DNA of 64,000 nucleotides from Patescibacteria group bacterium (GTDB taxonomy: Bacteria > Patescibacteriota > JACPGU01): assembly GCA_022703645.1 (NCBI GenBank), contig JAKLDG010000001.1, positions 443,277-507,276 of the forward strand. Reading direction: 5' to 3'. The position numbers were made by a program, and so were the translations under genes. Positions 5,201 to 60,101 of the stretch are shown here, in pieces. Position 1 is the first letter of the stretch. The number at the start of each line of letters is the position of its first letter. Below the pieces are notes generated by a model, which saw only the letters and a list, made by a program, of their open reading frames with translations, had not been told where the DNA came from and did not search any database.

Positions 5201-8191
5201 TTAATGCAATTGAATTGATCCACCGGGATGAATAACGTTCTCATCTTTTTTATCTTCCTCTTCTGGCTGCGGCACTTGGGTATTTACAACTACCGTCCCC
5301 TGGTCTTCGTTTGAATCTTTTTTCATTATTTCAATACTGCCAAAATCCTTTGCAAGTTCTTCTTCGTTTGGTTTTTTATCGGCTGGTTCGGTATTTACTA
5401 CCACTCCCCCACTCTCCATTAGATTTTGAACCTGTTGAACAGGTTTAGTTTCCGTTTTTTCTTGCGGAATTTCTTTAATTTCCTCTTTAATTTCTTCCTT
5501 TTCCCCTTTTCCCTGTTTCTCTTCTAAATTCGTTATTCCAGATTCTAGATTCTTCTCCGCCTTCTTTTTTGCATACCAAATCCCACCTACTTTATCCTTA
5601 ATTTCACGGAATTTTTCGCCTGGTTTTTCTGTCACTTCTGGCAAAGATTCAGCGTCAATTAACTTGCCAAATCCCTTTTTATCTCCGAAATCTTTTTTCT
5701 TACCTTCAAGCTCCGCCATCTGAGCTGACCAAGTTAAAATAGCTTGTTCAACATCAGCTCTTGGCACAGCATATTTTGCGCGGGACTCTGCAATTATTCT
5801 ATCTCCAAGACCTTGAAACTTTCTAATATCTTTGAAATAAACGGTAGTAGCAGAAAAAGCTGGGTTTACCGCACCGTCAATTGTCATCTTCACGTAAATA
5901 TGTCTGTTGCTAAGATTTACCAAGTCAACTTCATCAAACACTGGTTCAAATGTTTTCTTAAATACTGGAGCATCATCCACGCTCACACGGAATGCGATAG
6001 TATTTCCTACGTTACCAAATACGGCATCACGGATTTCCGGATCCATTTGCGCGACATATTGGTGAGCCATTATTAGATTCAATTTATATTTTCTAGCCTC
6101 TGCAAGAATTGTTGCAAAAGAAGTGGTCGCAAAGTTCTGGAACTCGTCAACGTATAAGTAAAAGTCTTTCATATCTTCTTCTCTCATCGTTGATCTTTCC
6201 ATAGCGGTCAGCTGAATTTTGGTAATAATCATTGCACCAAGTAGAGCCATATTATCTTCACCGATTTCACCCTTGGAAATTTTTACCAAGAGGATTTTTT
6301 GATTATCCATTATATCTTTGATATCAAAAGTGCTTTGCGGCTGGCCAACAATATTACGAATCGATGGAACAGACAAAAATTGTCCAATTTTATTTTGAAT
6401 CGGAGCAATCGCTTCGGTAGCAAAACGCGGATTGGTTTTGAGTTGTACCTCATATTCATCTGTCCAAAATGCTTTTACGACTGGATCAGCAATATTATCC
6501 ACAATCATTTTGCGATAACCAGTATTCGTCAACATCTTGGTGGCTGAAAGCATTGTCGTTCCAGGTGTTTCCATGAGAGCGAGAATGATGTTTTTCATGA
6601 TATATTCCATACGCGCAGACCAGACGCCTTCCCATATTTTTTTGAATATACTCATCATCCCGGATGCTAATATTTCCCTCTTATGAACATCCACATTTTC
6701 GAGCAGATTGAATCCAAGACTGTATTCTCTATCTCCAGGATTTAGGTAGACAACATCATTAATACGTTTTTCCGGAATATAATCGAGCGCGGTATCCACA
6801 AATTCTCCGTGCGGATCAATAATCGCCAATCCCCTGCCCTCATCAATATCATCAAGTACCATGTTCTTCATCACGGTTGTTTTACCGGTTCCAGTTTGAC
6901 CAATGATATACATATGACGTCTGCGATCATCCATCTTAATTCCAAAATTCATATCTTTATCGCGGAAATTAACTTTACCAAAAACAGTCAAATCCTGTGA
7001 ATCCACAACTCCTTCCAAAGGCAATGTTGCAGGAGGCTCGCCTTTTTTGCTGCCTGCCCAATCGATGGTTGGAGTCTCTACAGTAACAGTTGGCAAGTGG
7101 AAAAGTGATGCCAACTCCTCAATATTAAATATGAACCCAGATTCTTCAAAATGTCTGGCTTGTACTGCATTAAGGTATTCGAAATCATCAAAATAAAGTC
7201 CTTTTGCCGCAAATCCATTGAGGTTTGAAGCATTAAATTGTTTAAAAGCTCCAACGATTGACTGCATTTTTATTTTCAGTTCTTCTGAAGATTTATTTGA
7301 TAAAAATGTTAAACGAATTTTTGTTTCATAACCAAGTTTGGTTGATTTTTCTTCAATCGCTTTCACTGCTTGTTCTACTGGACCGGGTAATTTAAAATCT
7401 TTTGATCCTTTACTTAAAGCTTCGGGAGATGCCAACAATTTAAAAAATAAAAATACTATTGAAAATAACTTCTTAATTATCCCCATTCCTGTAAAGGTAA
7501 ATTTAGAATCAGGTTTTTTACCAGATTTAATATCCGATACATATTTCATTGCACTTTGCTGCCATAAATCATCGACAGGACGGGTCAAAATCTGGATCCA
7601 AATCTGCTCGCCTTCATTCAATTGTGATATTACTCCGGTTATACTCGCCAAGGGATCCACTTCGAAATTTTGAAAAGATTTAATCGGATAAAAACTATTT
7701 CTGTTTAATATCAATTCTGTTCCGACAAAATGTATTCCCTCCGGCCTTTTGACTAATGTATAGTCTTCAACTTCTGATATTTCTACTGTCGGATATTGAG
7801 CATAAATCTGACCTTGAACAAAATCAACAAGATGTACCGGCACATAAACATAGAACCGCAGGTATTTATCTGAAGATACGATTTCAAAACTGATATGCTC
7901 CTGAAAAGATCCTTCTTCTAGTTTTTCTTTGGTACTTTTATGAATACCATGAAGAGACGCAAACATCATTTGTGCCGAAAGTGGCCCTTTTTCGTTCGCC
8001 CGAGGAACCTTAATAAGTAATGTGGTGTATTTTTGCTTTACTAGCCAAAGTCTTTTTCTACGCTTGCTATAAGCTTTTATAATTAACGAAAAACCAAAAA
8101 TCCAACCACCTATGATTAGTAAATAAAAAATGATTCGAAATGCGCCGAATAAGATGTCGGAGAAACTAAAACCATTAGATATTGATTCCAT
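5201..8191 (-). CDS. membrane-anchored P-loop ATPase of the type IV coupling protein (VirD4/TraG/TrwB-like) family
   Basis: 996 aa. N-terminal transmembrane segment (FGAFRIIFYLLIIGGWIFGFSLII). Walker A 'HMYIIGQTGTGKTTVMKNMVLDDIDEGRGLAIIDPHGEF' parallels TrwB 'GxTGxGKS...IVDPNG'. Walker B 'YLYVDEFQNF'. Long acidic/lysine-rich C-terminal tail. Confidence 0.65.
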   Translation of the reverse strand: MESISNGFSFSDILFGAFRIIFYLLIIGGWIFGFSLIIKAYSKRRKRLWLVKQKYTTLLIKVPRANEKGPLSAQMMFASLHGIHKSTKEKLEEGSFQEHISFEIVSSDKYLRFYVYVPVHLVDFVQGQIYAQYPTVEISEVEDYTLVKRPEGIHFVGTELILNRNSFYPIKSFQNFEVDPLASITGVISQLNEGEQIWIQILTRPVDDLWQQSAMKYVSDIKSGKKPDSKFTFTGMGIIKKLFSIVFLFFKLLASPEALSKGSKDFKLPGPVEQAVKAIEEKSTKLGYETKIRLTFLSNKSSEELKIKMQSIVGAFKQFNASNLNGFAAKGLYFDDFEYLNAVQARHFEESGFIFNIEELASLFHLPTVTVETPTIDWAGSKKGEPPATLPLEGVVDSQDLTVFGKVNFRDKDMNFGIKMDDRRRHMYIIGQTGTGKTTVMKNMVLDDIDEGRGLAIIDPHGEFVDTALDYIPEKRINDVVYLNPGDREYSLGFNLLENVDVHKREILASGMMSIFKKIWEGVWSARMEYIMKNIILALMETPGTTMLSATKMLTNTGYRKMIVDNIADPVVKAFWTDEYEVQLKTNPRFATEAIAPIQNKIGQFLSVPSIRNIVGQPQSTFDIKDIMDNQKILLVKISKGEIGEDNMALLGAMIITKIQLTAMERSTMREEDMKDFYLYVDEFQNFATTSFATILAEARKYKLNLIMAHQYVAQMDPEIRDAVFGNVGNTIAFRVSVDDAPVFKKTFEPVFDEVDLVNLSNRHIYVKMTIDGAVNPAFSATTVYFKDIRKFQGLGDRIIAESRAKYAVPRADVEQAILTWSAQMAELEGKKKDFGDKKGFGKLIDAESLPEVTEKPGEKFREIKDKVGGIWYAKKKAEKNLESGITNLEEKQGKGEKEEIKEEIKEIPQEKTETKPVQQVQNLMESGGVVVNTEPADKKPNEEELAKDFGSIEIMKKDSNEDQGTVVVNTQVPQPEEEDKKDENVIHPGGSIQLH

Positions 8192-8322: not shown

Positions 8323-9411
8323 TTATTTTTTCACTATGTAACCTTCGGCTGTTTTGCTGAATTTTGGTGAGTTTTGCAGGTTTATGAGTACCGTTGCTTT
8401 CTTAACTTTCTTTTTCTTCATAACTTCTTCGACTATATCTTCCTGACTCATTGGCTGCCCTTTAGTTAATATCTTTTCAATAACTTCTTCTACAGTTCCA
8501 GGTTCAAATCCCCAGTCGGATAGTCCGTACAACCCCCTGCCAACAAGTATAAAGCGTTTGTCAGAGATCAGTTCATTATGAATTGTTTGTACAGTAGCGT
8601 TCTTTTGATCAAAGGAAGCGTTTTTTATTGAATTAAATATCTCAGTAAAATGCATTGGTTCATTCTTTTTTGACAAAACATAGAATATCTTGTCGCGAAT
8701 GGTTTTTGGTTTTACCCAAGGCCAGCTTGTCAAGCCTCTTTTACCATCTTCAGTAGCGTGTAGCTTTTTTGATATATCAATAGTTGATTTTAGGAATTCC
8801 GGATTAACGTATTTCGCATGTTTTTGTGCCACAGCATGTTTTAAAACTTCAGCCATTATAATTTCATCATTCATAGTTTCTTTTCTGCTATCAAGAATTT
8901 CACCAAAAGCTTTCACAATGTCTTCTATCACCTCTTTTTTATAAGTTGCAAGAGCCCATCCAGATTTAGTATGTTCCGTTTCTTCGATAGTTTGAATTTC
9001 ATTGCTCAAAAGCAAAAGGAATTTTAAAATCTTTTTGATTTCTTCGGTTCTGTTCTGCTCAAGATCAAGAATTAATTCATTAACTAGTTTATCTTCTTGG
9101 ATAACTCCCCCATTATTTTCGATAATAGTCTTTATTTTATCAAAAACCGGTTTATTGTGCTCTAAAATAACAAGTTTTCTTAACTTATTCAAAGAAGCAA
9201 CTTCTATCTGACGAATTCTTTCTCTGGTAACACCAAACTCCTTCCCTATTGCATCTAGAGTTATTTTCTTTCTGCCAGAAAGACCAAAACGTTTCATGAG
9301 AACCTTTTGCTGTTTTTCTTTCAGGTTGGAAACAAGATCACGAGCAAACTGATTAAAATGAGAATCTTTGATCCTTATTTCTCCTCCTACGTTTTTGGTT
9401 GTATTAGCCAT
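8323..9411 (-). CDS. DNA-binding protein: sigma-70 region-4-like HTH (N-terminal) fused to a HARE-HTH domain (C-terminal)
   Basis: 362 aa. The N-terminal stretch 'RFGLSGRKKITLDAIGKEFGVTRERIRQIEVASLNKLRK' is a canonical sigma-70 region 4.2 HTH. The C-terminal stretch 'EPMHFTEIFNSI...TVQTIHNELISDKRFILVGRGLYGLSDWG' matches the HARE-HTH pattern of RNA polymerase delta (RpoE) N-terminal domains. Confidence 0.6.
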   Translation of the reverse strand: MANTTKNVGGEIRIKDSHFNQFARDLVSNLKEKQQKVLMKRFGLSGRKKITLDAIGKEFGVTRERIRQIEVASLNKLRKLVILEHNKPVFDKIKTIIENNGGVIQEDKLVNELILDLEQNRTEEIKKILKFLLLLSNEIQTIEETEHTKSGWALATYKKEVIEDIVKAFGEILDSRKETMNDEIIMAEVLKHAVAQKHAKYVNPEFLKSTIDISKKLHATEDGKRGLTSWPWVKPKTIRDKIFYVLSKKNEPMHFTEIFNSIKNASFDQKNATVQTIHNELISDKRFILVGRGLYGLSDWGFEPGTVEEVIEKILTKGQPMSQEDIVEEVMKKKKVKKATVLINLQNSPKFSKTAEGYIVKK

Positions 9412-13428: not shown

Positions 13429-14168
13429 TTCAAAATTTTCTTTAAATCCTCCGGCAAATCCGAATTGAAAAATAATTTCTTTCCAGTAACAGGATGTTTG
13501 AACGTTAACTCCGTTGCATGCAAGAATTGCCGGCTTAGTCCAATATTTTTTGAAAATACCTCCGAATCTCTATTTTTATATACCTGATCCCCAACTACCG
13601 GATGTCCAATCGCAAACATATGCGCGCGAATTTGATGAGTGCGTCCGGTCTCAATTTGAACTTTCAATAACGATATTGGATATTGGATATCGGATATCGG
13701 ATATTTTTTGTAATCGGATACTTCGTAGTGAGTTATTGCTAATTTTGCATCCTTTGATTTAGAAGCCACAAATCTTGTTCTATTTTTCAGATCCCGCTTT
13801 AATGCAATATTTATAGTCCCCTTCTTTGGTTCCAGCTTTCCAAATACTAATGCTGAGTAAATTTTCAAAACTCTATGAGAAGCAAATTGGTTTTGTAGAT
13901 TTATGAGAGCCTCTTTTGTCTTTGCGATGACCATTAAACCCGATGTATCGCGGTCAAGCCGATGGACTATACCGGATCTGGGCAGATCGATTCCAAAGTC
14001 TTTTTTCAATATAGTTTCAAGCGTTTGGTCATCTTTTTTTTGTGATTCAACAATAAGACCGGCTGGCTTGTTAATAACAAGTAAGCATGGATCTTGATAA
14101 ACAATGTTTAAATTTTCTTTAGCCATTAGTTGCAAAAAAATACTCAATGCCCAATTTCCAATACCCAA
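13425..14168 (-). CDS. RluA-family 23S rRNA pseudouridine synthase
   Basis: 247 aa. 'HRLDRDTSGLMVIAK' catalytic-Asp motif, 'VYQDPCLLVINKPAG', 'THQIRAHM'. Contains an in-frame heptamer repeat at 13667-13705. Confidence 0.85.
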   Translation of the reverse strand: MGIGNWALSIFLQLMAKENLNIVYQDPCLLVINKPAGLIVESQKKDDQTLETILKKDFGIDLPRSGIVHRLDRDTSGLMVIAKTKEALINLQNQFASHRVLKIYSALVFGKLEPKKGTINIALKRDLKNRTRFVASKSKDAKLAITHYEVSDYKKYPISDIQYPISLLKVQIETGRTHQIRAHMFAIGHPVVGDQVYKNRDSEVFSKNIGLSRQFLHATELTFKHPVTGKKLFFNSDLPEDLKKILK

Positions 14169-15846: not shown

Positions 15847-15847
15847 A

Positions 15848-15918
15848 AATTTTCAATTTTACAATTTTCAATTTAATACATCGCGAAGCGATACTTACAA
15901 TGGAAATTGGAAATTTTT
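15848..15918. repeat. intergenic inverted-repeat element: (AATTTTC)n arm, ATCGCGAAGCGAT mini-hairpin, (GAAATTG)n arm
   Basis: AAATTTTCAATTTTACAATTTTCAATTT ... ATCGC-GAA-GCGAT (15880-15892) ... GGAAATTGGAAATTTTTT. Same architecture recurs at 22481-22592 and 29161-29272. Confidence 0.7.
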
Positions 15919-18735: not shown

Positions 18736-18775
18736 AGTTTTTGTTTTATTGTTTTTTGCTTTTTTGTTTTATTAA

Positions 18776-19288: not shown

Positions 19289-19330
19289 TTTTATTTTCTT
19301 AATTGATTTATTGCTTTTTTGTTTTCCTGA

Positions 19331-20296
19331 TTACTTGTCCCGATATTGCATTAATATCTGATGCTCTTCGCACGTCGGGCATAGTCCATAAATTTCAATG
19401 TTAGCATCGCATATTTTTTGCAGTTTTTTAATAATTTTTTTTCCTTCATCATTTTTGAACAGATGCTTGTAGCGTCCTTGTAAAGCCAAGTAATCCTCAA
19501 TCTTTGGTTTTAAGGCTGAAGTTTTTAAAACTTTTATTACATCTCCATTGATAATTTCTAAAACCGGATAAAATCCAGTTGTTGCGGCAAGCCGTGCCAC
19601 CTCAACTGTTTTAGATGGATCTATACCCCATCCTGGAACACAAGGTACAAGAATCTGGATATATTTTGGACCCTGATATTTCATCGACTCGCGGATTTTA
19701 TTCTCTATATCTTTCGGATAAGCAGCAGTAGAAGTCGCGACGTAAACCGCACCCATACTAACCGCAAATGCGACCATATTCTTTTTTTGTTGATCTGCCC
19801 CCCAAGACATTTTTCCTATTGGAGTCGTTGTAGTCTCTGTACCAAGCGGTGAAGACCCAGAAGCCTGCGCGCCGGTGTTTTGGTACCCTTCATTATCAAA
19901 ACAAATATATGTAATATTTTCTCTTCTTTCAAACATTCCCGCAAGCAGCCCAAACCCAATATCGAATGTTGAACCGTCGCCTGCAAAGACAACTACATTC
20001 GGCATTTCTGATTCTTGATTTGTTGTTTTTTTGTTTTCTTGTTTTCTTGATTTCAACGCTGCCAAAATTCCTGATGCTACCGCGGATGGATTCTCGAAAA
20101 GTGAATGTATATATGGAACATTCCATGCGCTTTCACCATATTTCGTCGTTGTAACTTCCAGACACCCTGTCGCGTCAGATACAATAGTATTTGGTCCAAA
20201 AGCGTTGATCACATGGATAGCGGTCATATTCTGCCCGCAACCAGCGCAAGCGGTGTGGCCGGGAAAAAGTAAGTTGTTATTTTTGTATTTTGCCAT
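19331..20296 (-). CDS. porB: pyruvate:ferredoxin oxidoreductase beta subunit (TPP-binding)
   Basis: 321 aa. 'CAGCGQ', 'GDGSTFDIGFGLLAGMFERRENITYICFDNEGYQNTG' (TPP fold); last gene of a porGDAB-type cluster. Confidence 0.85.
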   Translation of the reverse strand: MAKYKNNNLLFPGHTACAGCGQNMTAIHVINAFGPNTIVSDATGCLEVTTTKYGESAWNVPYIHSLFENPSAVASGILAALKSRKQENKKTTNQESEMPNVVVFAGDGSTFDIGFGLLAGMFERRENITYICFDNEGYQNTGAQASGSSPLGTETTTTPIGKMSWGADQQKKNMVAFAVSMGAVYVATSTAAYPKDIENKIRESMKYQGPKYIQILVPCVPGWGIDPSKTVEVARLAATTGFYPVLEIINGDVIKVLKTSALKPKIEDYLALQGRYKHLFKNDEGKKIIKKLQKICDANIEIYGLCPTCEEHQILMQYRDK

Positions 20297-22480: not shown

Positions 22481-22592
22481 GAAATTTTCAATTTTCAGTT
22501 TTCACTGTAGGTATCGCTTCGCGATATATTTAATTAAAAAATCGGATTATTGAAACATTGGTTGAAAATTGGAAATTGTAAAATTGAAAATT
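22481..22592. repeat. intergenic inverted-repeat element with central TATCGCTTCGCGATA hairpin, between porG and porD
   Basis: GAAATTTTCAATTTTCAGTTTTCAC ... TATCGC-TTC-GCGATA (22512-22526) ... TTGAAAATTGGAAATTGTAAAATTGAAAATTTG. Confidence 0.7.
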
Positions 22593-22596
22593 TGCT

Positions 22597-26852: not shown

Positions 26853-29162
26853 TTAATCTTTTTTCTCCTCTTCCTTGTTTTCTTGATTTTTTGTTTTTAT
26901 GTTTTCTTGCCCCTTAGTCGGATCTTCCCAACTTGCCCATTTACAATCAGGATAAGCGGAACATCCCCAGAATTTTTTGCGGCGTTTTGTAAATTTTACA
27001 ACAACATCACCTTTGCCGCAGTCTGGACACTTCATATCAAGTTTTTGCTCATTCATAGACTTTACATTTTTGCATTTTGGGTAAGCCGAACAAGCCAGAA
27101 ATTTTCCAAATCGTCCTTGCTTGATTACCATTTCAGAACCGCATTTTTCGCATTTTCCTCCGTTAGATTCTTTAACTGCCTCCGCTTCTTCTTTCGTTTC
27201 TTCGAGAGGCTGAGTATGTTTGCAATCCGGGAATCCTGTACAAGCAAGAAATTTACCGAACCGTCCAAATTTTTCTTTCAGCGGTTTCCCGCACTTTGGA
27301 CACATTATATCAGTAATTTTCTCTTCTCCCATAATATCTTCTTTTGAAATATCTTTATCTTTTTCTTCCAGATTTTTTTCAAATGGTCCATAGAAATCTT
27401 TAATCATTTTGTGCCAATCCTCTTTGCCTTCTGCGATATCATCAAATTCTTCTTCTACCTTCGCTGTAAAACCAATATCAACTATCTGCGGAAAATGTTC
27501 TACCAAAACATCATTCACGATTAATCCAATTTCTTGCGGATGAAATTTTTTCTCAATTAGTGTCACATATCCCCTATCTTGAATTGTCGCAAGAGTCGGA
27601 GCGTATGTGGATGGACGTCCGATTTCATTTTTTTCGAGTTCTTTTACCAGAGATGCTTCGGTAAATCTTGGCGGCGGTTGAGTAAATTTTTGTTGAGGAT
27701 CTAGATTTACCAGATCAAGATTATCCTTTTCATTAAGAGGTGGTAAAAATCCTTCTTTATCCTCTTCATCGATCTTGTCACCTTCGTCAATATCCTCTAT
27801 ATATACCTTTATAAAACCGGGAAATTTTACCACTGAACCTGTAGCGCGGAACATATAGTTTTTCGCATTAATATCTACCGATGTAGTGTCCATAACGGCC
27901 GGAACCATTTGAGATGCAACGGCTCTTTTCCAGATGAGAGTGTATAGACGAATCTGATCTTTATCTAGATATGCTTCTACATCATCAGGAGACAATTCCG
28001 GATGAGATGGGCGGATAGCTTCATGCGCTTCCTGCGCGCCCTTTGATTTATTTTTATAAAAATTTGCGTTATCCGGCAAGTATTCTTTGCCAAACTTATC
28101 ATTTATTTGTTGGCGAATAGCGGTTAGTGCTTCGCTCGCTAAGTTTAGCGAATCAGTACGCATATATGTTATCAAACCAAGATGTCCATGGGAACCCAAA
28201 TTCATACCTTCATAAAGCCTTTGCGCCACCATCATAGTTTTCTTTGCAGAGAACCCAAGTTTGCGCGCTGCTTCCTGCTGAAGTGTTGAGGTAGTAAATG
28301 GCGGAGATGGATAGCGGTTTTTTTCTTTCCTGCGAACTTCACCAACTACATAATCAGCCTTCTCTAATTCATTTAAAATCTGATCCGCCTGTTCTTTATT
28401 GACTACTTTTAATTCTTTACCATCCTTCTTAATCAATTTCGCTTGAAATTTTTCTTCTTGTTTTTTTGCTTTTTTGCTTTCTTGTTTAATTAATTCCGCT
28501 ATCAATTCCCAATATTCTTCAGGATTAAACGCCTGAATTTCGCGTTCTCTTTCAACAACTAATCGAACCGCAACAGATTGAACTCTGCCGGCTGAAAGAC
28601 CTTTTTTTACTTTTCTCCATAGAAATGGTGAAAGTTTGTAACCTACAAGACGGTCAAGGACTCTGCGAGCCTGCTGAGCATTCACAAGATTTATATCTAG
28701 TTCTCTTGGATTTGCAACCGCATCCTTCACCGCACTATCAGTTATCTGGTTAAATACAATCCTATGAACTTTAATATCATCGCTTGGCGATTCCTTAACT
28801 TTTAACTTTGAACTTTTAACTTTTAACTTCTTGGCATTTAATCCTAATGCAATACTTAAATGCCAAGCGATGGCCTCTCCTTCTCGGTCCAAGTCCGTCG
28901 CAAGATAAAGAGTTTTCACTTTTTTCAGGTCTTCTTTGAGTGCCGATACAGTTTTCTTCGCTTTTGTCGGTATTATATATTGAGGCTCAAAATCGTGTTC
29001 AACATCAACACCGAGCTTGCTTTTCGGCAAATCGCGAACATGTCCGTAACTCGCACGAACCATAAAATCTTTCCCCAATATTTTTTCGATCGTTCCTGCT
29101 TTTGCTGGGGACTCTACAATTACCAAGTTCTTACTCATAAAAGTATTTATTATAATTTTCAA
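26853..29162 (-). CDS. topA: DNA topoisomerase I with C-terminal zinc-ribbon repeats
   Basis: 769 aa. 'LVIVESPAKAGTIEKILG' Toprim, 'YLATDLDREGEAIAWH', catalytic Tyr region 'GLITYMRTDS', C4 zinc ribbons (CPKCGK...C..C). In-frame (AACTTTT)n repeat at 28786-28830. Confidence 0.92.
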   Translation of the reverse strand: MKIIINTFMSKNLVIVESPAKAGTIEKILGKDFMVRASYGHVRDLPKSKLGVDVEHDFEPQYIIPTKAKKTVSALKEDLKKVKTLYLATDLDREGEAIAWHLSIALGLNAKKLKVKSSKLKVKESPSDDIKVHRIVFNQITDSAVKDAVANPRELDINLVNAQQARRVLDRLVGYKLSPFLWRKVKKGLSAGRVQSVAVRLVVEREREIQAFNPEEYWELIAELIKQESKKAKKQEEKFQAKLIKKDGKELKVVNKEQADQILNELEKADYVVGEVRRKEKNRYPSPPFTTSTLQQEAARKLGFSAKKTMMVAQRLYEGMNLGSHGHLGLITYMRTDSLNLASEALTAIRQQINDKFGKEYLPDNANFYKNKSKGAQEAHEAIRPSHPELSPDDVEAYLDKDQIRLYTLIWKRAVASQMVPAVMDTTSVDINAKNYMFRATGSVVKFPGFIKVYIEDIDEGDKIDEEDKEGFLPPLNEKDNLDLVNLDPQQKFTQPPPRFTEASLVKELEKNEIGRPSTYAPTLATIQDRGYVTLIEKKFHPQEIGLIVNDVLVEHFPQIVDIGFTAKVEEEFDDIAEGKEDWHKMIKDFYGPFEKNLEEKDKDISKEDIMGEEKITDIMCPKCGKPLKEKFGRFGKFLACTGFPDCKHTQPLEETKEEAEAVKESNGGKCEKCGSEMVIKQGRFGKFLACSAYPKCKNVKSMNEQKLDMKCPDCGKGDVVVKFTKRRKKFWGCSAYPDCKWASWEDPTKGQENIKTKNQENKEEEKKD

Positions 29163-29272
29163 TTATCAATTCACAATTTTCAATCAATGATACAATTAAC
29201 AATTTTCAAATTTAAGAATTGAAACATTGAAAATTTATTGAGAACTGAAAATTGAAAATTGAAAATTTTTTA
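29161..29272. repeat. intergenic inverted-repeat element of (AATTTTC)n / (GAAAATT)n heptamer arrays between dprA and topA
   Basis: AATTTTCAATCAATGATACAATTAACAATTTTCAAATTT ... GAAAATTGAAAATTGAAAATTTTTT. Confidence 0.65.
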
Positions 29273-29402
29273 ACTTTCCCTTTATATCACACTTACCAAT
29301 GTCTTGTCAAAAAATATTTAATTATTTGATATTAGGAATTAGAGCTTAGAAATTTTTTGCAACAAAATACCATGATGCATAAAAACTTTACAAAAGTAGA
29401 AA

Positions 29403-34566: not shown

Positions 34567-34675
34567 TCATAAATATTATACCAGTATCAATGTAAAACTC
34601 AAGGTTATCGTTAGTTAAATATAGCCCAAGAGTACTAAATCCTATCATCCTAATCCCCGTAACCTATTCTAAAAG

Positions 34676-34684
34676 TTATCCACA
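34676..34684 (+). promoter_or_regulatory. DnaA-box 9-mer TTATCCACA in the mfd upstream region; box-like variants at 34786-34810
   Basis: Perfect TTATCCACA ~110 bp upstream of the mfd start. Nearby TTGTGGACAA and TTATCCATT, and an inverted repeat TGGTCAATT...AATTGACCA. Confidence 0.45.
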
Positions 34685-34859
34685 GTGGTCAATTTATATG
34701 CTATTTTTTAATTGACCAGTGTGTAAAATATTCAAGTATATTTGTCCATCTATTACATAATAATGGCTTAATTAAGTCAATATTATTTGTGGACAAATTA
34801 TCCATTGACAATTAGAAATCATTGTGCTATATTATAAGCAAAATTCAGTATCGAAAGAA

Positions 34860-35460
34860 AGCACATTCATAAAAAATCTATATCACTTCTCACTAACTTT
34901 AGACATATGGAGTTGGTAGAGAAAGTGCTAGTCACGAAGAGTCAGTCTGGTCTCAAAGAAAATTTATTTCCTTTGTCTCCTCTCTAACTTTCTCGCGGTT
35001 AGCACTCTCTCTACCAATACTTAGAAAAAATTTTCAAGAGGTTCGCCTTTTGAAAAAATATCAAAGTTGTTTGTGGAGAGAAAACTACTTGCGAACTCTC
35101 AACGCAAGTTGAGATTCGGAAAATCTTTTAGCCCTCCTTTAAGAAATTCCTACTCGCAAGTAGTACTCTCCCCATTAGCACCCACGCACTAGCTCAGAAA
35201 TCCTATTGGAGGAGCTAGGGTCAAAATAATGTCGCCTAGACAGAATAGTTTGGGAATTCTGCTAGTGAGGAGTAATTTGGACGGATCGTCCCGGATGTAA
35301 AGGTCTCATAGCCTACCAAAATAAAAATAAAACTATAAATACATTAATATGAGGCCTCCCCACCCAGGAGGATCCGTCCAAAACATCTACACCACCTCCA
35401 AATCTCTCAACACCGAAGTAGCACCTTCGGAGCCAGCGCCAAGCTGGCTACTACTCGTAC
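34860..35460. ncRNA. candidate structured noncoding RNA of unknown family (ORF-free, hairpin-rich, GC-elevated region between mfd and pth)
   Basis: No ORF of 60 aa or more on any frame across ~960 bp. Multiple GNRA-capped hairpins (TCTCAAC-GCAA-GTTGAGA; TACTC-GCAA-GTAGTA). Local helices CCGAAG..CTTCGG and AGCCAGC-GCCAA-GCTGGCT. Long-range complementarities GGTAGAGAAAGTGCTAG / TTAGCACTCTCTCTACC and GACGGATC...GATCCGTC. Region ends just upstream of a perfect bidirectional terminator. Confidence 0.35.
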
Positions 35461-35465
35461 AAAAA

Positions 35466-35485
35466 AACCGGTCATTCGACCGGTT
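35466..35485 (-). terminator. bidirectional rho-independent terminator (pth terminator; may also close the upstream structured region)
   Basis: AACCGGTC-ATTC-GACCGGTT perfect 8-bp stem flanked by A7 upstream and TTTTTATTTTT downstream. Confidence 0.75.
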
Positions 35486-35533
35486 TTTATTTTTGATTTT
35501 TTGATTTCTTGCTTTCTTGTTTAATTGTCTCCC

Positions 35534-36097
35534 CTACATTCCCAAATACTGAATTCCATTTATCAATAAATCCTCAATGACGTTTTCAATAATCTCCTTT
35601 TCACTAACCTTTAGAGCCTGCAAAACCCAATCTTCAATCTTTGTTAATTCATCCTCTGGTCTGCCGATACCGATTCTGACGCGTATAAAGCGCTCTGTAC
35701 CGAGATTATCTATAATAGACTGTAATCCTCGATGGCCCGCAGAAGAACCTTCAGCGCGCATTTTTATCTTCCCCAAAGGAATATCTATGTCATCGTATAT
35801 AACTATCAAGTCTTTTTCTGGGTTTACTTTATAAAAATCAACTACTTTACGCACTGCAATTCCGGAATTATTCATAAAAGTCTGCGGTTTGACGAGGATT
35901 ATATCTTCCTTGCCCAATTTTAACTTTGCAACCTCCGCATCAAACTTTTTTTCAAGCTTAAATTCTTGGATAATCGAAACCTTGCTTTCTTGTTTTTTTG
36001 TTTTATTGATTATTTGTTCCAACCCCAAAAACCCCACATTATGTCGTGTGTTTGTGTATTTCTTCCCCGGATTTCCCAACCCAACTATTATTTTCAT
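35534..36097 (-). CDS. pth: peptidyl-tRNA hydrolase
   Basis: 187 aa. 'IIVGLGNPGKKYTNTRHNVGF', 'LGKIKMRAEGSSAGHRGLQSI'. Confidence 0.92.
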   Translation of the reverse strand: MKIIVGLGNPGKKYTNTRHNVGFLGLEQIINKTKKQESKVSIIQEFKLEKKFDAEVAKLKLGKEDIILVKPQTFMNNSGIAVRKVVDFYKVNPEKDLIVIYDDIDIPLGKIKMRAEGSSAGHRGLQSIIDNLGTERFIRVRIGIGRPEDELTKIEDWVLQALKVSEKEIIENVIEDLLINGIQYLGM

Positions 36098-36101
36098 ATA
36101 T

Positions 36102-36114
36102 TGTCGCGAAGCGA
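36102..36114. promoter_or_regulatory. GTCGC-GAA-GCGAC mini-hairpin immediately upstream of the pth start codon
   Basis: Same GCGAAGC-centred palindrome as in the elements at 15880 and 22512; 5 nt from the pth ATG. Confidence 0.4.
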
Positions 36115-36136
36115 CTCCAAAACTTTTAACTTCTTC

Positions 36137-36445: not shown

Positions 36446-36464
36446 TTAAATACCTCCGGAATTT

Positions 36465-36565
36465 TTAATTTTTAATTTTTGAATTTTTAAAGAATGCTTT
36501 AAATTCAAATTTTTAAAAATTAAGATTTATTTATAAAATTAAAAATTACAAAATTAAAAATTTAG
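36465..36565. repeat. AT-only tandem repeat tract (AATTTTT/AAAAATT units) between rplI and ybaB
   Basis: TTAATTTTTAATTTTTGAATTTTTAAAG...AATTAAAAATTACAAAATTAAAAATTT. Confidence 0.5.
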
Positions 36566-38340: not shown

Positions 38341-38344
38341 TTTA

Positions 38345-38386
38345 TTCTAGATTCTAGATTCTAAATTCTAGATTCTAGATTCTTGC
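38345..38386. repeat. (TTCTAGA)6 heptamer microsatellite
   Basis: TTCTAGATTCTAGATTCTAAATTCTAGATTCTAGATTCTTG between the peptidase stop codon and its terminator hairpin. Confidence 0.8.
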
Positions 38387-41615: not shown

Positions 41616-41678
41616 CGCATTTCGTTATTACTTTTTTACCATTATACATCAAATTACAATTGAGGCAAGGCAGCAAAT

Positions 41679-41802
41679 GTCAAATTTCAAATTTCCAATT
41701 TCAAATTAATGACTAAATTTCAAATGATAAAATAATACGCTCATAAATTTGACATTAAACATTTGACATTGATTTGACATTTGTCATTTTTAATTTGTCA
41801 TT
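41679..41802. repeat. (CAAATTT)n heptamer array followed by five direct TTGWCAT repeats upstream of ftsE
   Basis: CAAATTTCAAATTTCCAATTTCAAATT ... CATTTGACATTAAACATTTGACATTGATTTGACATTTGTCATTTTTAATTTGTCATT. Confidence 0.6.
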
Positions 41803-42858: not shown

Positions 42859-43015
42859 AAAAAATTAAAATATTATGAAAATATTACAGAATATTTCAAA
42901 ATATTATTTCTTTAATATTTTACAATATTTTACAATATTTTCAAACCGCTTTTACCAAAACAAAAAACCTCAGGTTTTAACCTAAGGTTTTTTGTCTCAC
43001 TTAATGCGAGTGTAA

Positions 43016-45403: not shown

Positions 45404-45432
45404 GCGGCGAATGGGGAAACCCCCATTCGCCG
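45404..45432 (-). terminator. rho-independent terminator of the GC-rich lipoprotein gene
   Basis: Perfect 13-bp stem GCGGCGAATGGGG-AAA-CCCCATTCGCCGC; T-run follows on the minus strand. Confidence 0.7.
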
Positions 45433-49496: not shown

Positions 49497-52400
49497 CTAA
49501 ACTACTGAATCATCGCAATATCTGGAGAATGGACAATTTTCACAGTCCATTTTCGATGGAGTAGCTGTAAATTCTTGCGCACGGATACCATTTGAAGCAC
49601 GAATAATATTTTCTTTTACTTTTTCCAGCGACGTTTCGGTCGGAGTAAATGCCCCAACGATACCATTCATGAGAAAGAAAAGCCCCACTCGTTCTGGCAA
49701 TTCCCCTGTTAATTCCTTTATCGCAAGGGCATAAACTCCCAGCTGAGTATTGTCACGCGCCCTATTGTCTGCTTTTTTCTGATCGTCAATCTCAGAAGTC
49801 TTGAAATCAATGATTCCCACTCCCCCATTTGAGGTTTTTTCGAGCGCGTCAATTCGCCCTTCGATAATATTATTTTCTATTTCAAATTTAAAAGGCTTTT
49901 CTATTTCTAAAACCTCAATATTGTTTGAATATTCTGCAACAAACTTTTTTATCACCCCAATACCTTCATCATATCGCTGCTTTTCGTGTTCTGCTGAGAT
50001 GAACCCCTCACTACTCCAGTTTTGTTTATAAATTTCTAAAAGCTGATCCATATTTAATGTTTTTGAATTTTGGATTTGTGATTTGTTTGTAATTTGTAAT
50101 TTGTCATTTGAAATTTTTGCCTTATAGTATTCTTCAATCACTTTGTGAATAGCGCGACCAAATATAATCTGATGATTGGTCATGAGCTTGATCGGAGTAA
50201 TGTGAATAAATTTATATTTGCGTGGACAAGTCAGGTAATCGTCCACTTCAGCGCGTGATAATCTCAATTTCTCATCCTTAAGTTTTAGTCTGGTTGAGTA
50301 AAGCGGAACTTCTTTTGGCGCAAAATGTTCTATTCGCTCGAGCTCCGTCTGCTTTGAATATTCCGGATTTACATTTTCCGTTCCAAGCGCTTCCACAACA
50401 AATCGGCTGATTTTTACTGATTTTTTTCCGCCATAATCACGACCAAATGTCAGATAAAGCCTTTCAGCTGCTCTGGTCATACCAACATAAAAAAGTCTGC
50501 GCTCTTCAGCAAGATGGAGAGTTTTGCTGTCCGGCTCATCCTCATTTTCGTCAACACCAACCCAACCACCTTTTAATTCTTTCGGAAACCTTATTGGGTC
50601 GCCCATATTTCTCGACGGAAATTTCGAATCAGAAAGTCCAACCATAAATACATATTTGAATTCCAGCCCCTTCGCGCCATGAATTGTCAGAATCTTTACT
50701 GCATCATATGTCGGATCGTCCATTTCATCCGTAGGATCTTCGCCGATTTCTAAGAGAAGGTTAAGATATTCCATAAATTTCTGAATACCAACATCCAGAT
50801 TTGCTTCTTGAAACCCAAGAATACGATCAAAAAAATGTGAAATAGAAACTATTTTTTCGCCTGAATTCATATCTCCTTTTTTCTCATTTGTCGCAAGCTT
50901 TTTCAGATATCCACTGTCTGAAATAAATTTGTAGAGAACTTCTCCCGCACTCGCAGTAATACTCTCTCTCCTAATATTTTGTAATATTTCTAATATTTCT
51001 TTAATATTTTCCAGATTCCCCTTTCCTAGGTCTTTTTCTAATACTTTTTCGTCTTCGGTTCTCAAGTACTCCTCAAGCGGAATGTTTTTTGATCGGACTT
51101 TGTGCAATACTACACTAATTCGGTCGAAATCAACCCCTACAAATTCCCCAACCAAGAGATTAAAAAGCGCTAGATTATCGGCTGGGTTTATTAATATTGA
51201 AAAGAAAGCGATCACATTTTTTATAATACTCTTACGAAAAAGCCCTTCGTTTCCCGTAAATAAATAAGGGATTTTTTTGCCAGATAGCGCGTTGGTAAAT
51301 GGTAAAGCCTGATTATTTGACCGAATCAAAATCGCAAAGTCTGAGTATTTAATTTCTTTATTAATTTCTTTTAATTTCCTAATTTCCTCTGCAACATTTG
51401 CTGCTTCCTCTGTAGCGTTTTCAAAGAAAAGCAATTCCGGTTTTTTGCCATTTTGCATGTTTGAATTTAACTTTTTATTGATACCATATTTTGTCTCAAG
51501 ACGATCTGGATTATTGAATTGAATTAATTTATAGCTCGCATCCAGTATTTCCTGAGTATTGCGATAATTTTCCGTTAAAACTACCTGTTTAGTATCCTCC
51601 CAATTTTCTTTAAATTCTAGAATATTTGAAATATCTGCCCCACGAAATTTGTAAATTGACTGGTCATCGTCCCCCACTACAGTAATAGTTGGTAAGTTAT
51701 AAGTTGTAAGTTGTAAGTTTTTAGGATTTTGAATTTTATTGGGTATTGGGCATTGGTCATTGGGAATTTCTAAGGTTAATACCTTTAGCAGTTCATTCTG
51801 CGCAAAATTCGTATCCTGAAATTCATCAACTAATATATATTTATACTTTTTGCGAAAGTTTGAGAGAAGCTGTTCTTTTTCTCTCAATGCTTTGTTCATA
51901 TTAAAAATCAGATCGCCAAAATCCATTCTATCATTGAGAGCCATCAGCTCCTGATATGTTTTATATGAATAAGCCAACTCCAATTGTTGCTCAGCATACT
52001 CTTTCTCAATTTTGCTATCAGCTTTATTTGAAAGATTCTGTGCAAATTCCAGGTATTGATAAGGACCAATAAGCTCGTCTTTGAGATGCGAGAAATGGTG
52101 GATCATATCTTGGACAAAACGCGTAGGATCCCCTAGCGGTCGGTAAACCTTCAGATTAAAATCAAATATATGATCACGAATAAATAATATCTGTTGTGGC
52201 TCGGTGAGAATCTTGAAAGCCGTGGAATATCCGAGAGAATATGCGTTTTCCCGCAAAAATTCTTCGGCTAGAGAATGAAAATTACACGCTTTTACGTCAT
52301 TGTATCCGTATGGTAAAACGATATCTAACCTTTCCTCCATCTCTGCCGCAGCTTTTTTCGTAAATGTGATTGCTAATATTTCCGATGGCTTGGCTTTTTT

Positions 52401-54077: not shown

Positions 54078-54174
54078 TCTAAAAGTTTATAATTTCTAAA
54101 TTATAAATTATAATTTCTAATTTGAGACTTTGACATTTTATTAGATATTATAATTTAGATATTAGACATTTCCT

Positions 54175-60046: not shown

Positions 60047-60071
60047 TGTATTTTATTAAATTATTTTTTTG

Positions 60072-60101
60072 AAAATTGCAAAATTGAAAATTGAAAATTT
60101 A
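60072..60101. repeat. (GAAAATT)4 heptamer array
   Basis: GAAAATTGCAAAATTGAAAATTGAAAATTT between the PilO-like gene and the small membrane protein gene. Confidence 0.7.

What the first reader, a model, noticed from the sequence alone, without database searches (positions are those of the whole stretch)
15848..15918. Dispersed intergenic inverted-repeat elements built from GAAAATT heptamer arrays, several centred on a GCGAAGC-type mini-hairpin
The same architecture recurs at 15848-15918 (recR/cysK), 22481-22592 (porG/porD) and 29161-29272 (dprA/topA), with a one-armed version at 60072-60101. A left arm of (AATTTTC)n repeats and a right arm of (GAAAATT/GGAAATT)n repeats form an inverted repeat 70-110 bp long. 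In two copies the arms flank a short perfect GC palindrome, ATCGC-GAA-GCGAT or its complement TATCGC-TTC-GCGATA. The same GTCGC-GAA-GCGAC palindrome also sits 5 nt upstream of the pth ATG (36102-36114). d(GCGAAGC) is the classic hyper-stable DNA/RNA mini-hairpin. The elements lie between co-directional minus-strand genes, in either orientation, which suggests a DNA-level (MITE-like or REP-like) element or a combined terminator/promoter module rather than an oriented RNA.
Basis: seen in the sequence. Interest (0 to 1): 0.65.

Follow-up and report, generated by a model that had tools for sequence, protein, structure and literature searches.

The report
Palindromic dispersed repeats made of heptamers
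The GAAAATT inverted repeats are real and belong to one of several families of small, hairpin-forming dispersed repeats built from 7-base tandem units that riddle this tiny Patescibacteria genome, even inside essential genes; they are a new example of the long-known but unexplained excess of 7-base repeats in bacteria.

Summary
The window comes from a Patescibacteria (CPR3/Microgenomates-like) genome of about 867 kb.

The (AATTTTC)n...(GAAAATT)n inverted repeats at 15847-15918, 22481-22596 and 29152-29268 are true paralogues. They share irregular stretches that independent slippage would not reproduce.

In 118 kb of the same genome I found at least 6 full copies, 2 one-armed copies and 3 array fragments inside genes. 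GAAAATT-derived 12-mers are the commonest oligomers in that sample.

Copies lie in either orientation in every kind of intergenic spacer: 5' UTR, operon-internal and convergent. Copies 2 and 3 are missing from the orthologous sites of some relatives.

At least four other families with different 7-nt units have the same architecture. Each related genome has its own dominant unit.

Heptamer arrays also sit in frame inside topA, tgt, mnmA and other genes.

Folding shows no sense-strand bias, and there is no terminator or promoter signature.

The best reading is a DNA-level, REPIN/MITE-like palindromic repeat that grows by 7-nt slippage. Two RAYT-type transposase genes are in the genome, but their flanks lack the element.

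The GCGAAGC mini-hairpin is a separate module of about 25 nt, present in only 2 of the 6 full copies.

Exact (GAAAATT)3 also occurs in many phyla, including 65%-GC Acidobacteria.

The parts
15847..15918 (.). Family A copy 1 (recR/cysK spacer). Left arm 15847-15874 abuts the cysK ATG, the mini-hairpin module ATCGCGAAGCGAT is at 15880-15892, and the right arm (GGAAATT)2 is at 15902-15915.
   Evidence: Aligns with copy 2 on the opposite strand, including the irregular AAATTTTCAATTTTACAATTT and 15 nt around the hairpin.
22481..22596 (.). Family A copy 2 (porG/porD spacer, inside the por operon), inverted relative to copy 1. Arms at 22483-22504 and 22562-22592, mini-hairpin at 22513-22525, and an extra 35 nt.
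   Evidence: The orthologous spacer is only about 15-36 nt in relatives L123, L211 and L209.
29152..29268 (.). Family A copy 3 (dprA/topA spacer). A 57+57 nt imperfect palindrome without a GC hairpin, lying in the predicted 5' UTR of topA.
   Evidence: I1. Sense-strand fold -29.2 kcal/mol, z -6.5. 78-84% identical over 85-119 nt to L207 27-140, L215 4298-4408 and L215 20434-20518.
29300..29336 (-). Approximate position of the predicted topA promoter (TTGACA, about 17-18 nt, TGaTATAAA), upstream of copy 3.
   Evidence: Read. The same promoter sequence is conserved in L208, L209 and L211, where the leader is about 35 nt in L209 and L211. This is an inference with no transcript data, and the coordinates were read by eye.
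60069..60099 (+). One-armed family A array (GAAAATT x4.3) between pilO and an 86-aa gene, 3 nt from the upstream stop codon.
   Evidence: Similar to a one-armed copy just beyond the window end, at position 927-957 of the reverse complement of L205 1-3909.
36103..36115 (+). Solitary mini-hairpin module GTCGCGAAGCGAC, 5 nt upstream of pth and preceded on the sense strand by AAGAAGTTAAAAGTT.
   Evidence: Relative L208 has GGAATCGCTTCGCGAT downstream of ybaB, preceded by an (AAATCTC) array.
28767..28829 (-). In-frame insertion in topA. On the sense strand it reads (AAGTTAA)x5, with one unit changed to AAGTTCA that removes a stop codon, then GGAATCGCCAAGCGATGATATTAAAGTT. It adds about 16 residues (LKVKSSKLKVKESPSD).
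   Evidence: Absent from L123 and from four of thirteen close TopA homologues. 28 of 28 nt are identical to an array inside tgt (L207 447-474).
36458..36564 (.). Family B palindrome (AATTTTT)n...(AAAAATT)n in the L9/ybaB spacer.
   Evidence: Paralogues at L215 1680-1816. A homologous element in L208 is flipped relative to the genes. L123 has a palindrome with a different unit at the same site.
41672..41802 (.). Family D palindrome (CAAATTT)n...(ATTTGAC)n.
   Evidence: Paralogues at L207 8606-8730 and L215 4833-4934.
54084..54172 (.). Family C palindrome (TTTATAA/ATTTCTA)n...(TATTAGA)n.
   Evidence: Paralogues at L215 903-971 and 19900-20011.
42866..42943 (.). Palindrome built from 10-nt units, (AAAATATTAT)n...(AATATTTTAC)n.
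   Evidence: (I6).
38344..38383 (+). One-armed (ATTCTAG)x5.7 array next to an ordinary G+C terminator hairpin.
   Evidence: A related unit follows the stop codon of RAYT-like gene 1 (L212 10531-10564).
13672..13705 (-). Heptamer array (ATATCCG/ATATCCA on the sense strand) inside the pseudouridine synthase gene.
50069..50116 (-). Heptamer array (ACAAATT and variants on the sense strand) inside the UvrD-like helicase gene. Two more arrays lie at 51687-51768.

Best explanation
The finding is family A of a set of small (70-130 nt), non-coding, palindromic dispersed repeats whose arms are degenerate tandem arrays of a 7-nt unit, here AATTTTC/GAAAATT. The host is a Patescibacteria genome.

Shown:
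- The copies descend from one another by duplication to new sites. They are not independent slippage products.
- They sit in either orientation in any kind of intergenic spacer, and fragments sit in frame inside genes.
- They are missing from orthologous sites in some relatives.
- The genome and its relatives are saturated with period-7 arrays, and each genome has its own dominant unit.

Inferred:
- The elements behave as selfish or near-neutral DNA of the REPIN/MITE type. The palindrome as a whole is copied to new sites, probably as a single-stranded DNA hairpin. The candidate agent is one of the two RAYT-type HUH/Y1 transposases encoded in the genome.
- Arms then lengthen, shorten and diverge in 7-nt steps by replication slippage, and recombination between the arms flips the element.
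- Because the elements fill transcribed spacers they must add long A+U-rich hairpins to 5' UTRs and intercistronic RNA. That is a side effect, not the selected function.
- The GC mini-hairpin ((A/T)ATCGC-TTC-GCGAT plus flanks) is a second, smaller repeated module that happens to be nested in two copies.
For: Paralogy:
- Copy 1 (+) and copy 2 (-) share AAATTTTCAATTTTACAATTTYCAATTT, including an irregular 8-mer, and AATAYATCGCGAAGCGATACYTACARTG.
- A third copy upstream of tgt carries the same irregular arm (29 nt, 96.5%).
- Full-length alignments of 85-119 nt at 78-84% identity link copy 3 with three copies elsewhere in the genome.

Abundance:
- 45 period-7 arrays in 118 kb. Eleven are of the GAAAATT class.
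- AATTTTCAATTT is the commonest 12-mer in the sample, with 18 occurrences.

Empty sites:
- The porG/porD spacer is 15-36 nt in L123, L211 and L209, against 143 nt in the window.
- The topA leader is about 35 nt in L209 and L211 behind the same conserved promoter.

Every spacer type and both orientations:
- Copies occur in a 5' UTR, inside an operon and between convergent genes.
- The L9/ybaB element is flipped between the window and L208.

Coding insertions:
- TopA carries a 16-residue insertion, with one unit mutated to avoid a stop codon.
- The same 28-nt array is found inside tgt.
- TopA homologues carry independent heptamer-encoded insertions at three loops.

No RNA-strand preference:
- The sense-minus-antisense folding energy is negative in 6 of 12 elements and positive in 6.

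Period 7 is specific:
- Perfect arrays in the window number 6, 12 and 0 for periods 6, 7 and 8.
- In L208, 20 of 21 arrays have period 7.

Candidate transposases:
- Two Y1_Tnp/RayT homologues (P0138, P0205) have the same 867,473-bp longest contig as the window's proteins.
Against: - No target-site duplication and no exact insertion boundaries could be defined.
- The flanks of both RAYT-like genes lack family A sequence, so the defining REP-RAYT linkage is not met.
- No autonomous element with matching ends was seen in 118 kb.
- Copies are only 78-84% identical outside the arms. Four independent assemblies of this population show no polymorphism at any array. There is therefore no sign of current mobility or of current slippage.
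- The same exact (GAAAATT)3 array occurs in many unrelated phyla. There the arms can be perfect while the centres differ completely, which a simple copy-and-paste element does not explain.
- Fragments inside genes are not typical of REPINs.
Confidence: 0.55

Rival explanations
1. Pure simple-sequence-repeat dynamics with no mobility. Heptamer arrays arise in place by replication slippage, which for unknown reasons favours 7-nt units. Palindromic pairs arise by template switching between strands. Similarity between loci comes from convergent seeds or from gene conversion between arrays.
For: - The period-7 excess is general. In 1.0 Mb of unselected bacterial loci, perfect arrays number 39, 29, 2 and 1 for periods 6-9. 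The literature reports heptamer SSR over-representation in many bacteria (PMC4692102, citing a 2007 survey).
- Unit sequences differ between loci and between related genomes at the same spacer.
- Arrays occur inside genes.
- In Thermoanaerobaculia the arms are perfect while the centres are unrelated.
- There is no TSD and no linked transposase.
Against: - Non-repetitive irregularities, spacer sequence and array variants are shared between distant loci. Examples are 28 of 28 nt between topA and tgt and 85-119 nt alignments between spacers.
- There is no length polymorphism among four assemblies.
- A+T-rich GAAAATT arrays in genomes of 61-68% G+C are not what local seeds would give.
Confidence: 0.22
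2. A selected cis-regulatory element acting on expression of the flanking genes. It could be an RNA hairpin in 5' UTRs and intercistronic regions that controls mRNA stability, processing (for example by RNase III) or translation. It could instead be arrays of binding sites for a heptad-reading protein: S1/Csp-like proteins on RNA as proposed for TAACTGA repeats, or an omega/RHH-type repressor on DNA.
For: - Elements end flush with start codons (cysK, tgt) or 3-4 nt after stop codons.
- Copy 3 and the tgt copy begin about 10-13 nt after a -10 box, so the whole element is leader RNA.
- The genes behind the elements lack the GGAGG Shine-Dalgarno sequence that other genes here have.
- In other CPR genomes (GAAAATT)n lies 3-13 nt upstream of start codons.
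- All elements fold into long hairpins, z -1.2 to -7.3.
- The palindromic architecture is kept at the L9/ybaB spacer in three genomes while the unit changes.
- MacGregor 2015 (PMC4679880) argued for translational control by TAACTGA repeats.
Against: - The same genes in close relatives manage without the element.
- Either orientation is tolerated, and there is no sense-strand folding advantage.
- Copies occur between convergent genes and inside coding sequence.
- Across 128 arrays from other phyla there is no preference for start over stop or for one strand: 29, 32, 33 and 19 in the four configurations.
- The flanking genes are functionally unrelated.
Confidence: 0.15
3. A combined bidirectional terminator/promoter module. 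The hairpin ends the upstream transcript, and the TTGAAA-containing arms supply -35-like elements for the downstream gene.
For: - The unit TTGAAAA contains a 5-of-6 match to TTGACA.
- Elements lie between co-directional genes.
- In Thermoanaerobaculia the arrays extend the A- and T-tracts around G+C-rich centres that look like bidirectional terminators.
Against: - In the window the sense strand has no G+C stem followed by a U-tract at any copy, and the genome has ordinary terminators elsewhere.
- Promoter-like matches are not enriched: 67 against 54.6 +/- 6.8.
- Copy 2 lies inside the por operon, whose genes are about 15 nt apart in relatives.
- Copy 3 lies downstream of the conserved topA promoter.
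- Copy 1 leaves no room for a -10 box and a leader.
Confidence: 0.05

Closest known systems
REPINs (REP doublets forming hairpins) with RAYT transposases (Bertels and Rainey 2011, PMC3116915)
   Same: - A non-coding, multi-copy palindrome of about 100 nt made of two inverted arms and a spacer.
- Predicted hairpin in ssDNA or RNA.
- Several distinct families per genome.
- Single-copy RAYT-type Y1 transposase genes present in the genome.
- Families differ between related genomes.
   Different: - The arms are tandem 7-nt arrays, not a 20-40 nt REP with a GTAG motif.
- The element is not found next to the RAYT genes.
- Fragments occur inside coding sequence.
Heptanucleotide tandem repeats: cyanobacterial STRR, TAACTGA repeats of Beggiatoaceae/Cyanobacteria/Bacteroidetes (PMC4679880), GGGAATC repeats of Xanthomonas (PMC4692102)
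   Same: - Period of exactly 7, mostly intergenic and often within a few nt of start codons.
- Occasional inverted pairs.
- Present in one strain and absent from the same spacer in close relatives.
- Mixed arrays of several heptamers.
- Scattered distribution across phyla, and unknown function.
- TAACTGA arrays co-occur with GAAAATT arrays in loci fetched here.
   Different: - A different unit.
- Here the arrays are organised as whole palindromic elements that are paralogous over 85-119 nt, including non-repeat sequence.
- Patescibacteria have not, to my knowledge, been described as hosts. I found no such report in the literature searches.
MITEs and Rickettsia palindromic elements (RPEs)
   Same: - Short palindromic non-autonomous repeats in either orientation.
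- Presence/absence between relatives.
- In-frame insertion into protein-coding genes, as with RPEs (comparison from my own knowledge).
   Different: - No target-site duplication and no parent insertion sequence were found.
- The internal sequence is low-complexity heptamer array rather than unique sequence.
DNA uptake sequences (Neisseria DUS, Pasteurellaceae USS)
   Same: - A genome-specific over-represented short motif with lineage 'dialects'.
- Frequent inverted pairs between genes, and also tolerated inside genes.
- The host has type IV pilus and DprA genes. The comparison rests on my own knowledge.
   Different: - Uptake sequences are single 9-12-mers, not tandem arrays.
- There is no evidence here for biased uptake. 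This is only an analogy.
d(GCGAAGC) hyper-stable mini-hairpin
   Same: The exact heptamer closes the centre of copies 1 and 2 and the pth-proximal module.
   Different: - The bare motif is not enriched in the window (8 against 5.7).
- What repeats is a longer module of about 25 nt. One coding copy has the loop CAA instead.
- Four of six full elements lack it.

Membership tests
REPIN / REP-RAYT system | Short sequence repeated many times in the genome | tested here: met
   At least 6 full, 2 one-armed and 3 intragenic family A copies in 118 kb. The unit gives the commonest 12-mers.
REPIN / REP-RAYT system | Two inverted arms plus a spacer that fold into a hairpin | tested here: met
   (dG -10.7 to -34.6 kcal/mol; z down to -7.3).
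REPIN / REP-RAYT system | RAYT (Y1/HUH) transposase gene in the same genome, single copy of each type | tested here: met
   P0138 and P0205 are 47% identical to each other and 45-58% identical to proteins named RayT or REP-associated tyrosine transposase. They have the same longest contig (867,473 bp) as the window's TopA. That they are in the same genome is an inference.
REPIN / REP-RAYT system | The repeat flanks its RAYT gene | tested here: not met
   The non-coding flanks of both genes hold no family A 12-mer. RAYT 1 is followed by an (AATTCTA)-type array of another family.
REPIN / REP-RAYT system | Confined to extragenic space | tested here: not met
   GAAAATT arrays lie inside the mnmA, U32 peptidase and tgt coding sequences.
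MITE | Terminal inverted repeats | tested here: met
   The arms AATTTTCAATT...AATTGAAAATT bound the element.
MITE | Target-site duplication of fixed length | tested here: inconclusive
   None is recognisable at copies 1-3. The A+T-rich flanks and diverged empty sites prevent exact boundaries.
MITE | Parent autonomous element with the same ends | tested here: not met
   None found in the 118 kb sampled. The rest of the genome was not examined.
MITE | Presence/absence at orthologous sites | tested here: met
   Absent from the porG/porD spacer and the topA leader in L123, L209 and L211.
Heptamer SSR arrays (STRR / TAACTGA class) | Head-to-tail 7-nt units, mostly intergenic | tested here: met
   (31 of 45 arrays are intergenic).
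Heptamer SSR arrays (STRR / TAACTGA class) | Copy-number change in 7-nt steps between close strains | tested here: not met
   Four assemblies of this population are identical at all arrays. The only indel is in a 24-nt repeat. More distant strains were not available.
Intrinsic terminator | G+C-rich stem followed by a U-tract on the transcribed strand | tested here: not met
   The only hit is on the antisense strand at copy 2, with a weak tail.
Known RNA families (Rfam 15) | Match to a curated covariance model | tested here: not met
   No match at gathering threshold anywhere in the window.

The most novel reading that the evidence does not exclude
The heptamer arrays are written or propagated by a dedicated, sequence-aware process that is shared across phyla. 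Candidates are a HUH/RAYT-type enzyme or another DNA-synthesis activity that adds or copies 7-nt units next to DNA hairpins.

This would explain four things:
- why the identical (GAAAATT)n array flanks unrelated G+C-rich centres in 65%-GC Acidobacteria, Bacteroidota and Patescibacteria;
- why each genome has its own dominant 'dialect';
- why arrays adjoin the small GC hairpin module;
- why period 7 is over-represented in bacteria at all.
Probability: 0.1. Interest if true: 0.85.

Novelty: new variant of a known kind. Interest (0 to 1): 0.5.

Why it matters
Heptanucleotide repeats have been noted in bacteria since about 1990. They were shown to be over-represented genome-wide in 2007, but neither their origin nor their function is known.

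- **A tractable case.** This genome is under 0.9 Mb. The arrays are organised into recognisable paralogous palindromes in several families. Related genomes carry different dominant units and empty sites. RAYT genes are present. Origin (transposition or slippage) and effect on expression can therefore be tested by comparison and with a few biochemical assays.
- **Gene remodelling in a minimal genome.** The repeats reshape essential genes such as topA, tgt and mnmA by in-frame, 7-residue-periodic insertions.
- **A practical caution.** These elements mimic regulatory hairpins, terminators and operators, and could be mis-annotated as such.

Tried and rejected
- **Rfam.** The whole window at gathering threshold gave no hit. 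The two large non-coding regions at E<=1 gave only chance-level hits. ARAGORN found no tRNA or tmRNA.
- **Promoter/terminator scan of 14-31 kb.** Counts were no different from shuffles, so I dropped the terminator/promoter module.
- **Leaderless-promoter reading of copy 1.** Worked through by eye. No acceptable -35/-10 pair was found.
- **TTG as a -35-like core of all units.** TTG/CAA is in 41% of non-target units against 21% expected. Many of those units are one mutation from GAAAATT, and the main units of L208 and L123 lack TTG. Not general.
- **G-U against C-A asymmetry as evidence for an RNA strand.** Copy 1 favours the antisense strand, but over 12 elements there is no bias.
- **Repeated target-site duplication as the source of arrays.** Rejected because the flanking arrays are inverted, not direct.
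- **Integron attC analogy for the Thermoanaerobaculia elements.** They have conserved arms and a variable centre, but no RYYYAAC/GTTRRRY cores.
- **Homologue search with the 911-aa neighbour protein.** It returned only itself.
- **RAYT homologues near GAAAATT arrays in other phyla.** None within the 8-kb loci.
- **Strain polymorphism.** None found among the available assemblies.
- **Elhai 2008.** The paper on very small mobile repeats in cyanobacteria is not in the library, so that comparison is not used.
Full report

Yes. The sequence at all four sites is as described.

- GAAAATTGAAAATT with up to 2 mismatches occurs 31 times in the window. Dinucleotide-preserving shuffles give 7.8 +/- 3.1, and none of 100 reaches 31. 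The hits cluster at 15848-15915, 22483-22592, 29154-29267 and 60071-60099.
- The repeat tools recover the arms. They also recover a 57+57 nt imperfect palindrome at 29154-29267.
- The GC palindrome ATCGC-GAA-GCGAT is at 15880-15892, and its complement is at 22513-22525.
- GTCGCGAAGCGAC is at 36103-36115, 5 nt from the pth start.
- TCGCGAAGCGA occurs three times exactly. At up to 1 mismatch there are 4 hits against 0.94 expected.
- GCGAAGC alone is not enriched: 8 against 5.7.

**2. Where the window comes from**

- Identical proteins are on record as 'MAG TPA ... Patescibacteria group bacterium', on contigs up to 867,473 bp.
- The closest TopA relatives (62-80% identity) are labelled candidate division CPR3 and Microgenomates.
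- Independent assemblies from ENA, NCBI, JGI and Logan are 99.9-100% identical to the window, so the repeats are not assembly artefacts.

**3. The three full copies are paralogues, not chance low complexity**

- Copy 1 on the + strand aligns with copy 2 on the - strand through AAATTTTCAATTTTACAATTTYCAATTT. That stretch contains an irregular 8-nt unit. The alignment continues through AATAYATCGCGAAGCGATACYTACARTGRAAA.
- I could add 54 kb of the same genome: the flanks of the window and the surroundings of two RAYT-like genes.
- In the 118 kb now sampled, a self-comparison finds full-length relatives of copy 3 in three places:
  - upstream of tgt (L207 27-140, 78% over 119 nt);
  - between nifU and mnmA (L215 4298-4408, 79% over 113 nt);
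  - between the convergent ruvX and a hydrogenase gene (L215 20434-20518, 84% over 85 nt).
- The tgt copy has the same irregular arm as copies 1 and 2 (29 nt, 96.5%).
- There are also one-armed copies (60069-60099 and one just past the window end). Arrays lie inside the coding sequences of mnmA, a U32 peptidase and tgt.
- AATTTTCAATTT is the most frequent 12-mer of the sample, with 18 occurrences.

**4. The family is one of several, and period 7 is the rule**

- Other spacers hold the same architecture with other units:
  - (AATTTTT)/(AAAAATT) at 36458-36564;
  - (CAAATTT)/(ATTTGAC) at 41672-41802;
  - (TTTATAA)/(TATTAGA) at 54084-54172;
  - a 10-nt version at 42866-42943;
  - a one-armed (ATTCTAG)x5.7 at 38344-38383.
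- Three of these four palindrome families (36458-36564, 41672-41802, 54084-54172) have paralogues elsewhere in the genome at 84-100% identity.
- Perfect arrays of at least 2.5 copies number 6, 12 and 0 for periods 6, 7 and 8 in the window. In 1.0 Mb of unselected bacterial loci the counts are 39, 29, 2 and 1 for periods 6-9. Period 7 is therefore a general spike, and it is about 6.5 times denser here.
- TRF finds 45 period-7 arrays in the 118 kb: 31 intergenic and 14 in open reading frames.
- Five relatives with TopA 73-78% identical show the same dominance of period 7, each with its own commonest unit. L208 has TTTAAAT-type units, and 20 of its 21 arrays have period 7. L123 has AATCTCA.

**5. 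Comparison of orthologous sites**

*porG/porD.* The spacer is 143 nt in the window. It is about 15-36 nt in L123, L211 and L209.

*topA.* The promoter TTGACA-N17/18-TGnTATAAG is conserved in the window, L208, L209 and L211.
- The leader behind it is about 35 nt in L209 and L211.
- In the window the leader is expanded by copy 3. In L208 it is expanded by an unrelated heptamer palindrome.
- The window's TAATAAATAC just before the ATG matches L209. This places the right-hand end of the insertion, but no target duplication is visible.

*L9/ybaB.* The window and L208 carry a homologous element that is flipped relative to the genes: alignment score 68 in the flipped orientation against 52.5. L123 has a palindrome with a different unit at the same place.

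*recR/cysK and porG/porD in L208.* Both spacers are occupied by L208's own family.

*Summary.* The elements come and go, flip, and are replaced, while the genes stay.

**6. Arrays inside genes**

- TopA of the window has a 16-residue insertion (LKVKSSKLKVKESPSD). L123 and four of thirteen close homologues lack it.
- Its DNA is (AAGTTAA)x5 followed by GGAATCGCCAAGCGATGATATTAAAGTT. One unit is changed to AAGTTCA, exactly where the reading frame would otherwise meet TAA.
- Twenty-eight consecutive bases of this array recur inside tgt. The tgt gene carries four arrays, one pair of which is itself a palindrome.
- TopA homologues carry independent insertions at three surface loops. Their peptides (NLKSQIS-like) are the three-frame translation of (AATCTCA)n.
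- These facts point to a mutational or mobile DNA process that selection merely tolerates. They do not point to a regulatory signal.

**7. The mini-hairpin**

- It is part of a module of about 25 nt. On the sense strand it reads AAGG(A/T)ATCGC-TTC-GCGAT-G(A/T)TATTAAA.
- It is found in copies 1 and 2, alone before pth, and in the topA insertion with loop CAA.
- In relatives it lies inside mfd (L123) and downstream of ybaB (L208). Each time a heptamer array of a different unit lies on its 5' side.
- Four of the six full family A copies lack it.
- I treat it as a second small repeated module. Its association with arrays is unexplained.

**8. Tests of function**

- On the sense strand no copy has a G+C stem followed by a U-tract. 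Ordinary terminators are common elsewhere in the window.
- Promoter-like matches are not enriched.
- All twelve palindromes tested fold into long hairpins (z -1.2 to -7.3). The sense strand is the more stable one in only 6 of 12.
- Across 128 (GAAAATT)3 arrays from other genomes there is no preference for starts over stops or for either strand.
- No array differs among four assemblies of the population.
- Nothing here indicates an oriented RNA element or a hypermutable switch.

**9. A possible mobilising enzyme**

- A relative (L211) encodes a 184-residue protein that passes Pfam's Y1_Tnp threshold.
- Two homologues, P0138 and P0205, lie on the same 867-kb contig as the window's genes. They have the HUH and YY motifs and resemble proteins named RayT.
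- This meets one REPIN criterion.
- The decisive criterion, the repeat flanking the RAYT gene, is not met for family A.
- The arrays also occur in genes, which REPINs by definition do not (PMC3116915).

**10. Beyond this lineage**

The hosts include Thermoanaerobaculia, many Bacteroidota, several CPR groups, Oscillospiraceae and cyanobacteria.
- Host loci range from 32 to 68% G+C.
- In Thermoanaerobaculia, perfect arms GGAATT(GAAAATT)3-4...(AATTTTC)3-4AATTCC enclose unrelated G+C-rich centres.
- That topology, GAAAATT first, was seen 19 times. The window's topology, AATTTTC first, was seen 3 times, in L014, L019 (both CPR) and L084 (title not seen).
- These loci hold six times more other heptamer arrays than unselected loci. 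They include the TAACTGA unit described by MacGregor (PMC4679880).
- The literature records heptamer over-representation, occasional inverted pairs, start-codon proximity and absence from close relatives. It records no mechanism (PMC4692102, PMC4679880, PMC6749651).
- I found nothing on Patescibacteria or on palindromic heptamer-array families.

**11. Verdict**

The terminator/promoter reading and the central role of GCGAAGC are not supported.
- I rate the best explanation at 0.55: a dispersed palindromic repeat that spreads as a unit and then evolves by 7-nt slippage, possibly moved by RAYT.
- The rivals are pure slippage with template switching at 0.22, a selected cis-regulatory role at 0.15, and a terminator/promoter module at 0.05.
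- It is a new variant of known kinds (REPIN/MITE and heptamer SSR arrays), of moderate interest.
- The cross-phylum recurrence of one heptamer and the invasion of essential genes are the parts that deserve follow-up.

Noticed in passing
window 18736-18775, 19289-19330, 35484-35526, 35982-36018, 57910-57946; inside genes at 20012-20054, 28449-28491, 33615-33654, 26874-26909: A separate dispersed family of 8-nt arrays, TTGTTTTN on the + strand and (NAAAACAA)n on the sense strand. They lie directly upstream of many start codons and also inside genes, where they encode Lys/Gln/Glu-rich stretches. Copies are 88-100% identical over 22-43 nt.
   Followed up: partly
window 34567-35533: A 967-nt gene-free region between pth and mfd with several long G+C-rich hairpins. 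A gap of 730-970 nt is kept at this place in relatives L208, L210 and L211 (L209 has two genes there), and part of it (35066-35228) is conserved in L123. There is no Rfam match even at E<=1, and no tRNA or tmRNA. It may be an undescribed structured RNA.
   Followed up: partly
window 45074-45551 and 47061-47692: Two further long non-coding regions (478 and 632 nt) flank a 502-aa gene with no Pfam hit. The first holds 10-nt and 9-nt arrays (TCGCTAATTA, ATTCGTGAA) and a G+C hairpin. Rfam gives only chance-level matches.
   Followed up: partly
window 63092-63163: A 24-nt tandem repeat (3 copies, 97% matches) lies inside the 517-aa gene at 61656-63209. One assembly (ENA k141_273520) has one copy fewer. 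This is the only indel among all assemblies compared.
   Followed up: yes
window 43617-43966 and 44058-44407: A 350-nt internal duplication (97% identical) lies inside the 685-aa gene at 43016-45073, which has weak CLIPPER/NPCBM-associated hits.
   Followed up: no
L212 10001-10528 and L215 10001-10576 (same genome, outside the window): Two RAYT-type Y1 transposase genes. The first sits between a tyrosine-recombinase (XerC/D-like) gene and obg, and its stop codon is followed at once by an (AATTCTA)-type heptamer array.
   Followed up: partly
L212 744-1053, 2841-3132, 4116-4425 and related segments (same genome, outside the window): A different repeat of about 310 nt, in at least three copies at 84-91% identity. 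It is interleaved with small genes of unknown function next to a HaeIII-type restriction-modification pair.
   Followed up: no
reverse complement of L205 1-3909, positions 927-982 (just beyond window position 64000): A (GAAAATT)x4 array is directly followed by a C-rich heptamer array (TCCCCCT-type) in a 37% G+C genome. Similar juxtapositions of A+T-rich and G+C-rich heptamer arrays occur in Bacteroidota loci, for example L053 (GTCGACG) and L114 (CACCCCT).
   Followed up: no
L156 and L157 (GC 0.59-0.61), just upstream of topA: In two unrelated high-G+C metagenome contigs, heptamer arrays (ACTGACN, AGCTGAN) lie immediately before the topA start codon.
   Followed up: no
window 5201-8191, and L207 6098-8605 with 8759-9136: Two paralogous DUF8128/DUF87/TrwB-type ATPase genes and a T4SS-pilin gene lie near a full type IV pilus cluster (window about 52-63 kb) and dprA. 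This is the usual DNA-uptake equipment of Patescibacteria.
   Followed up: no
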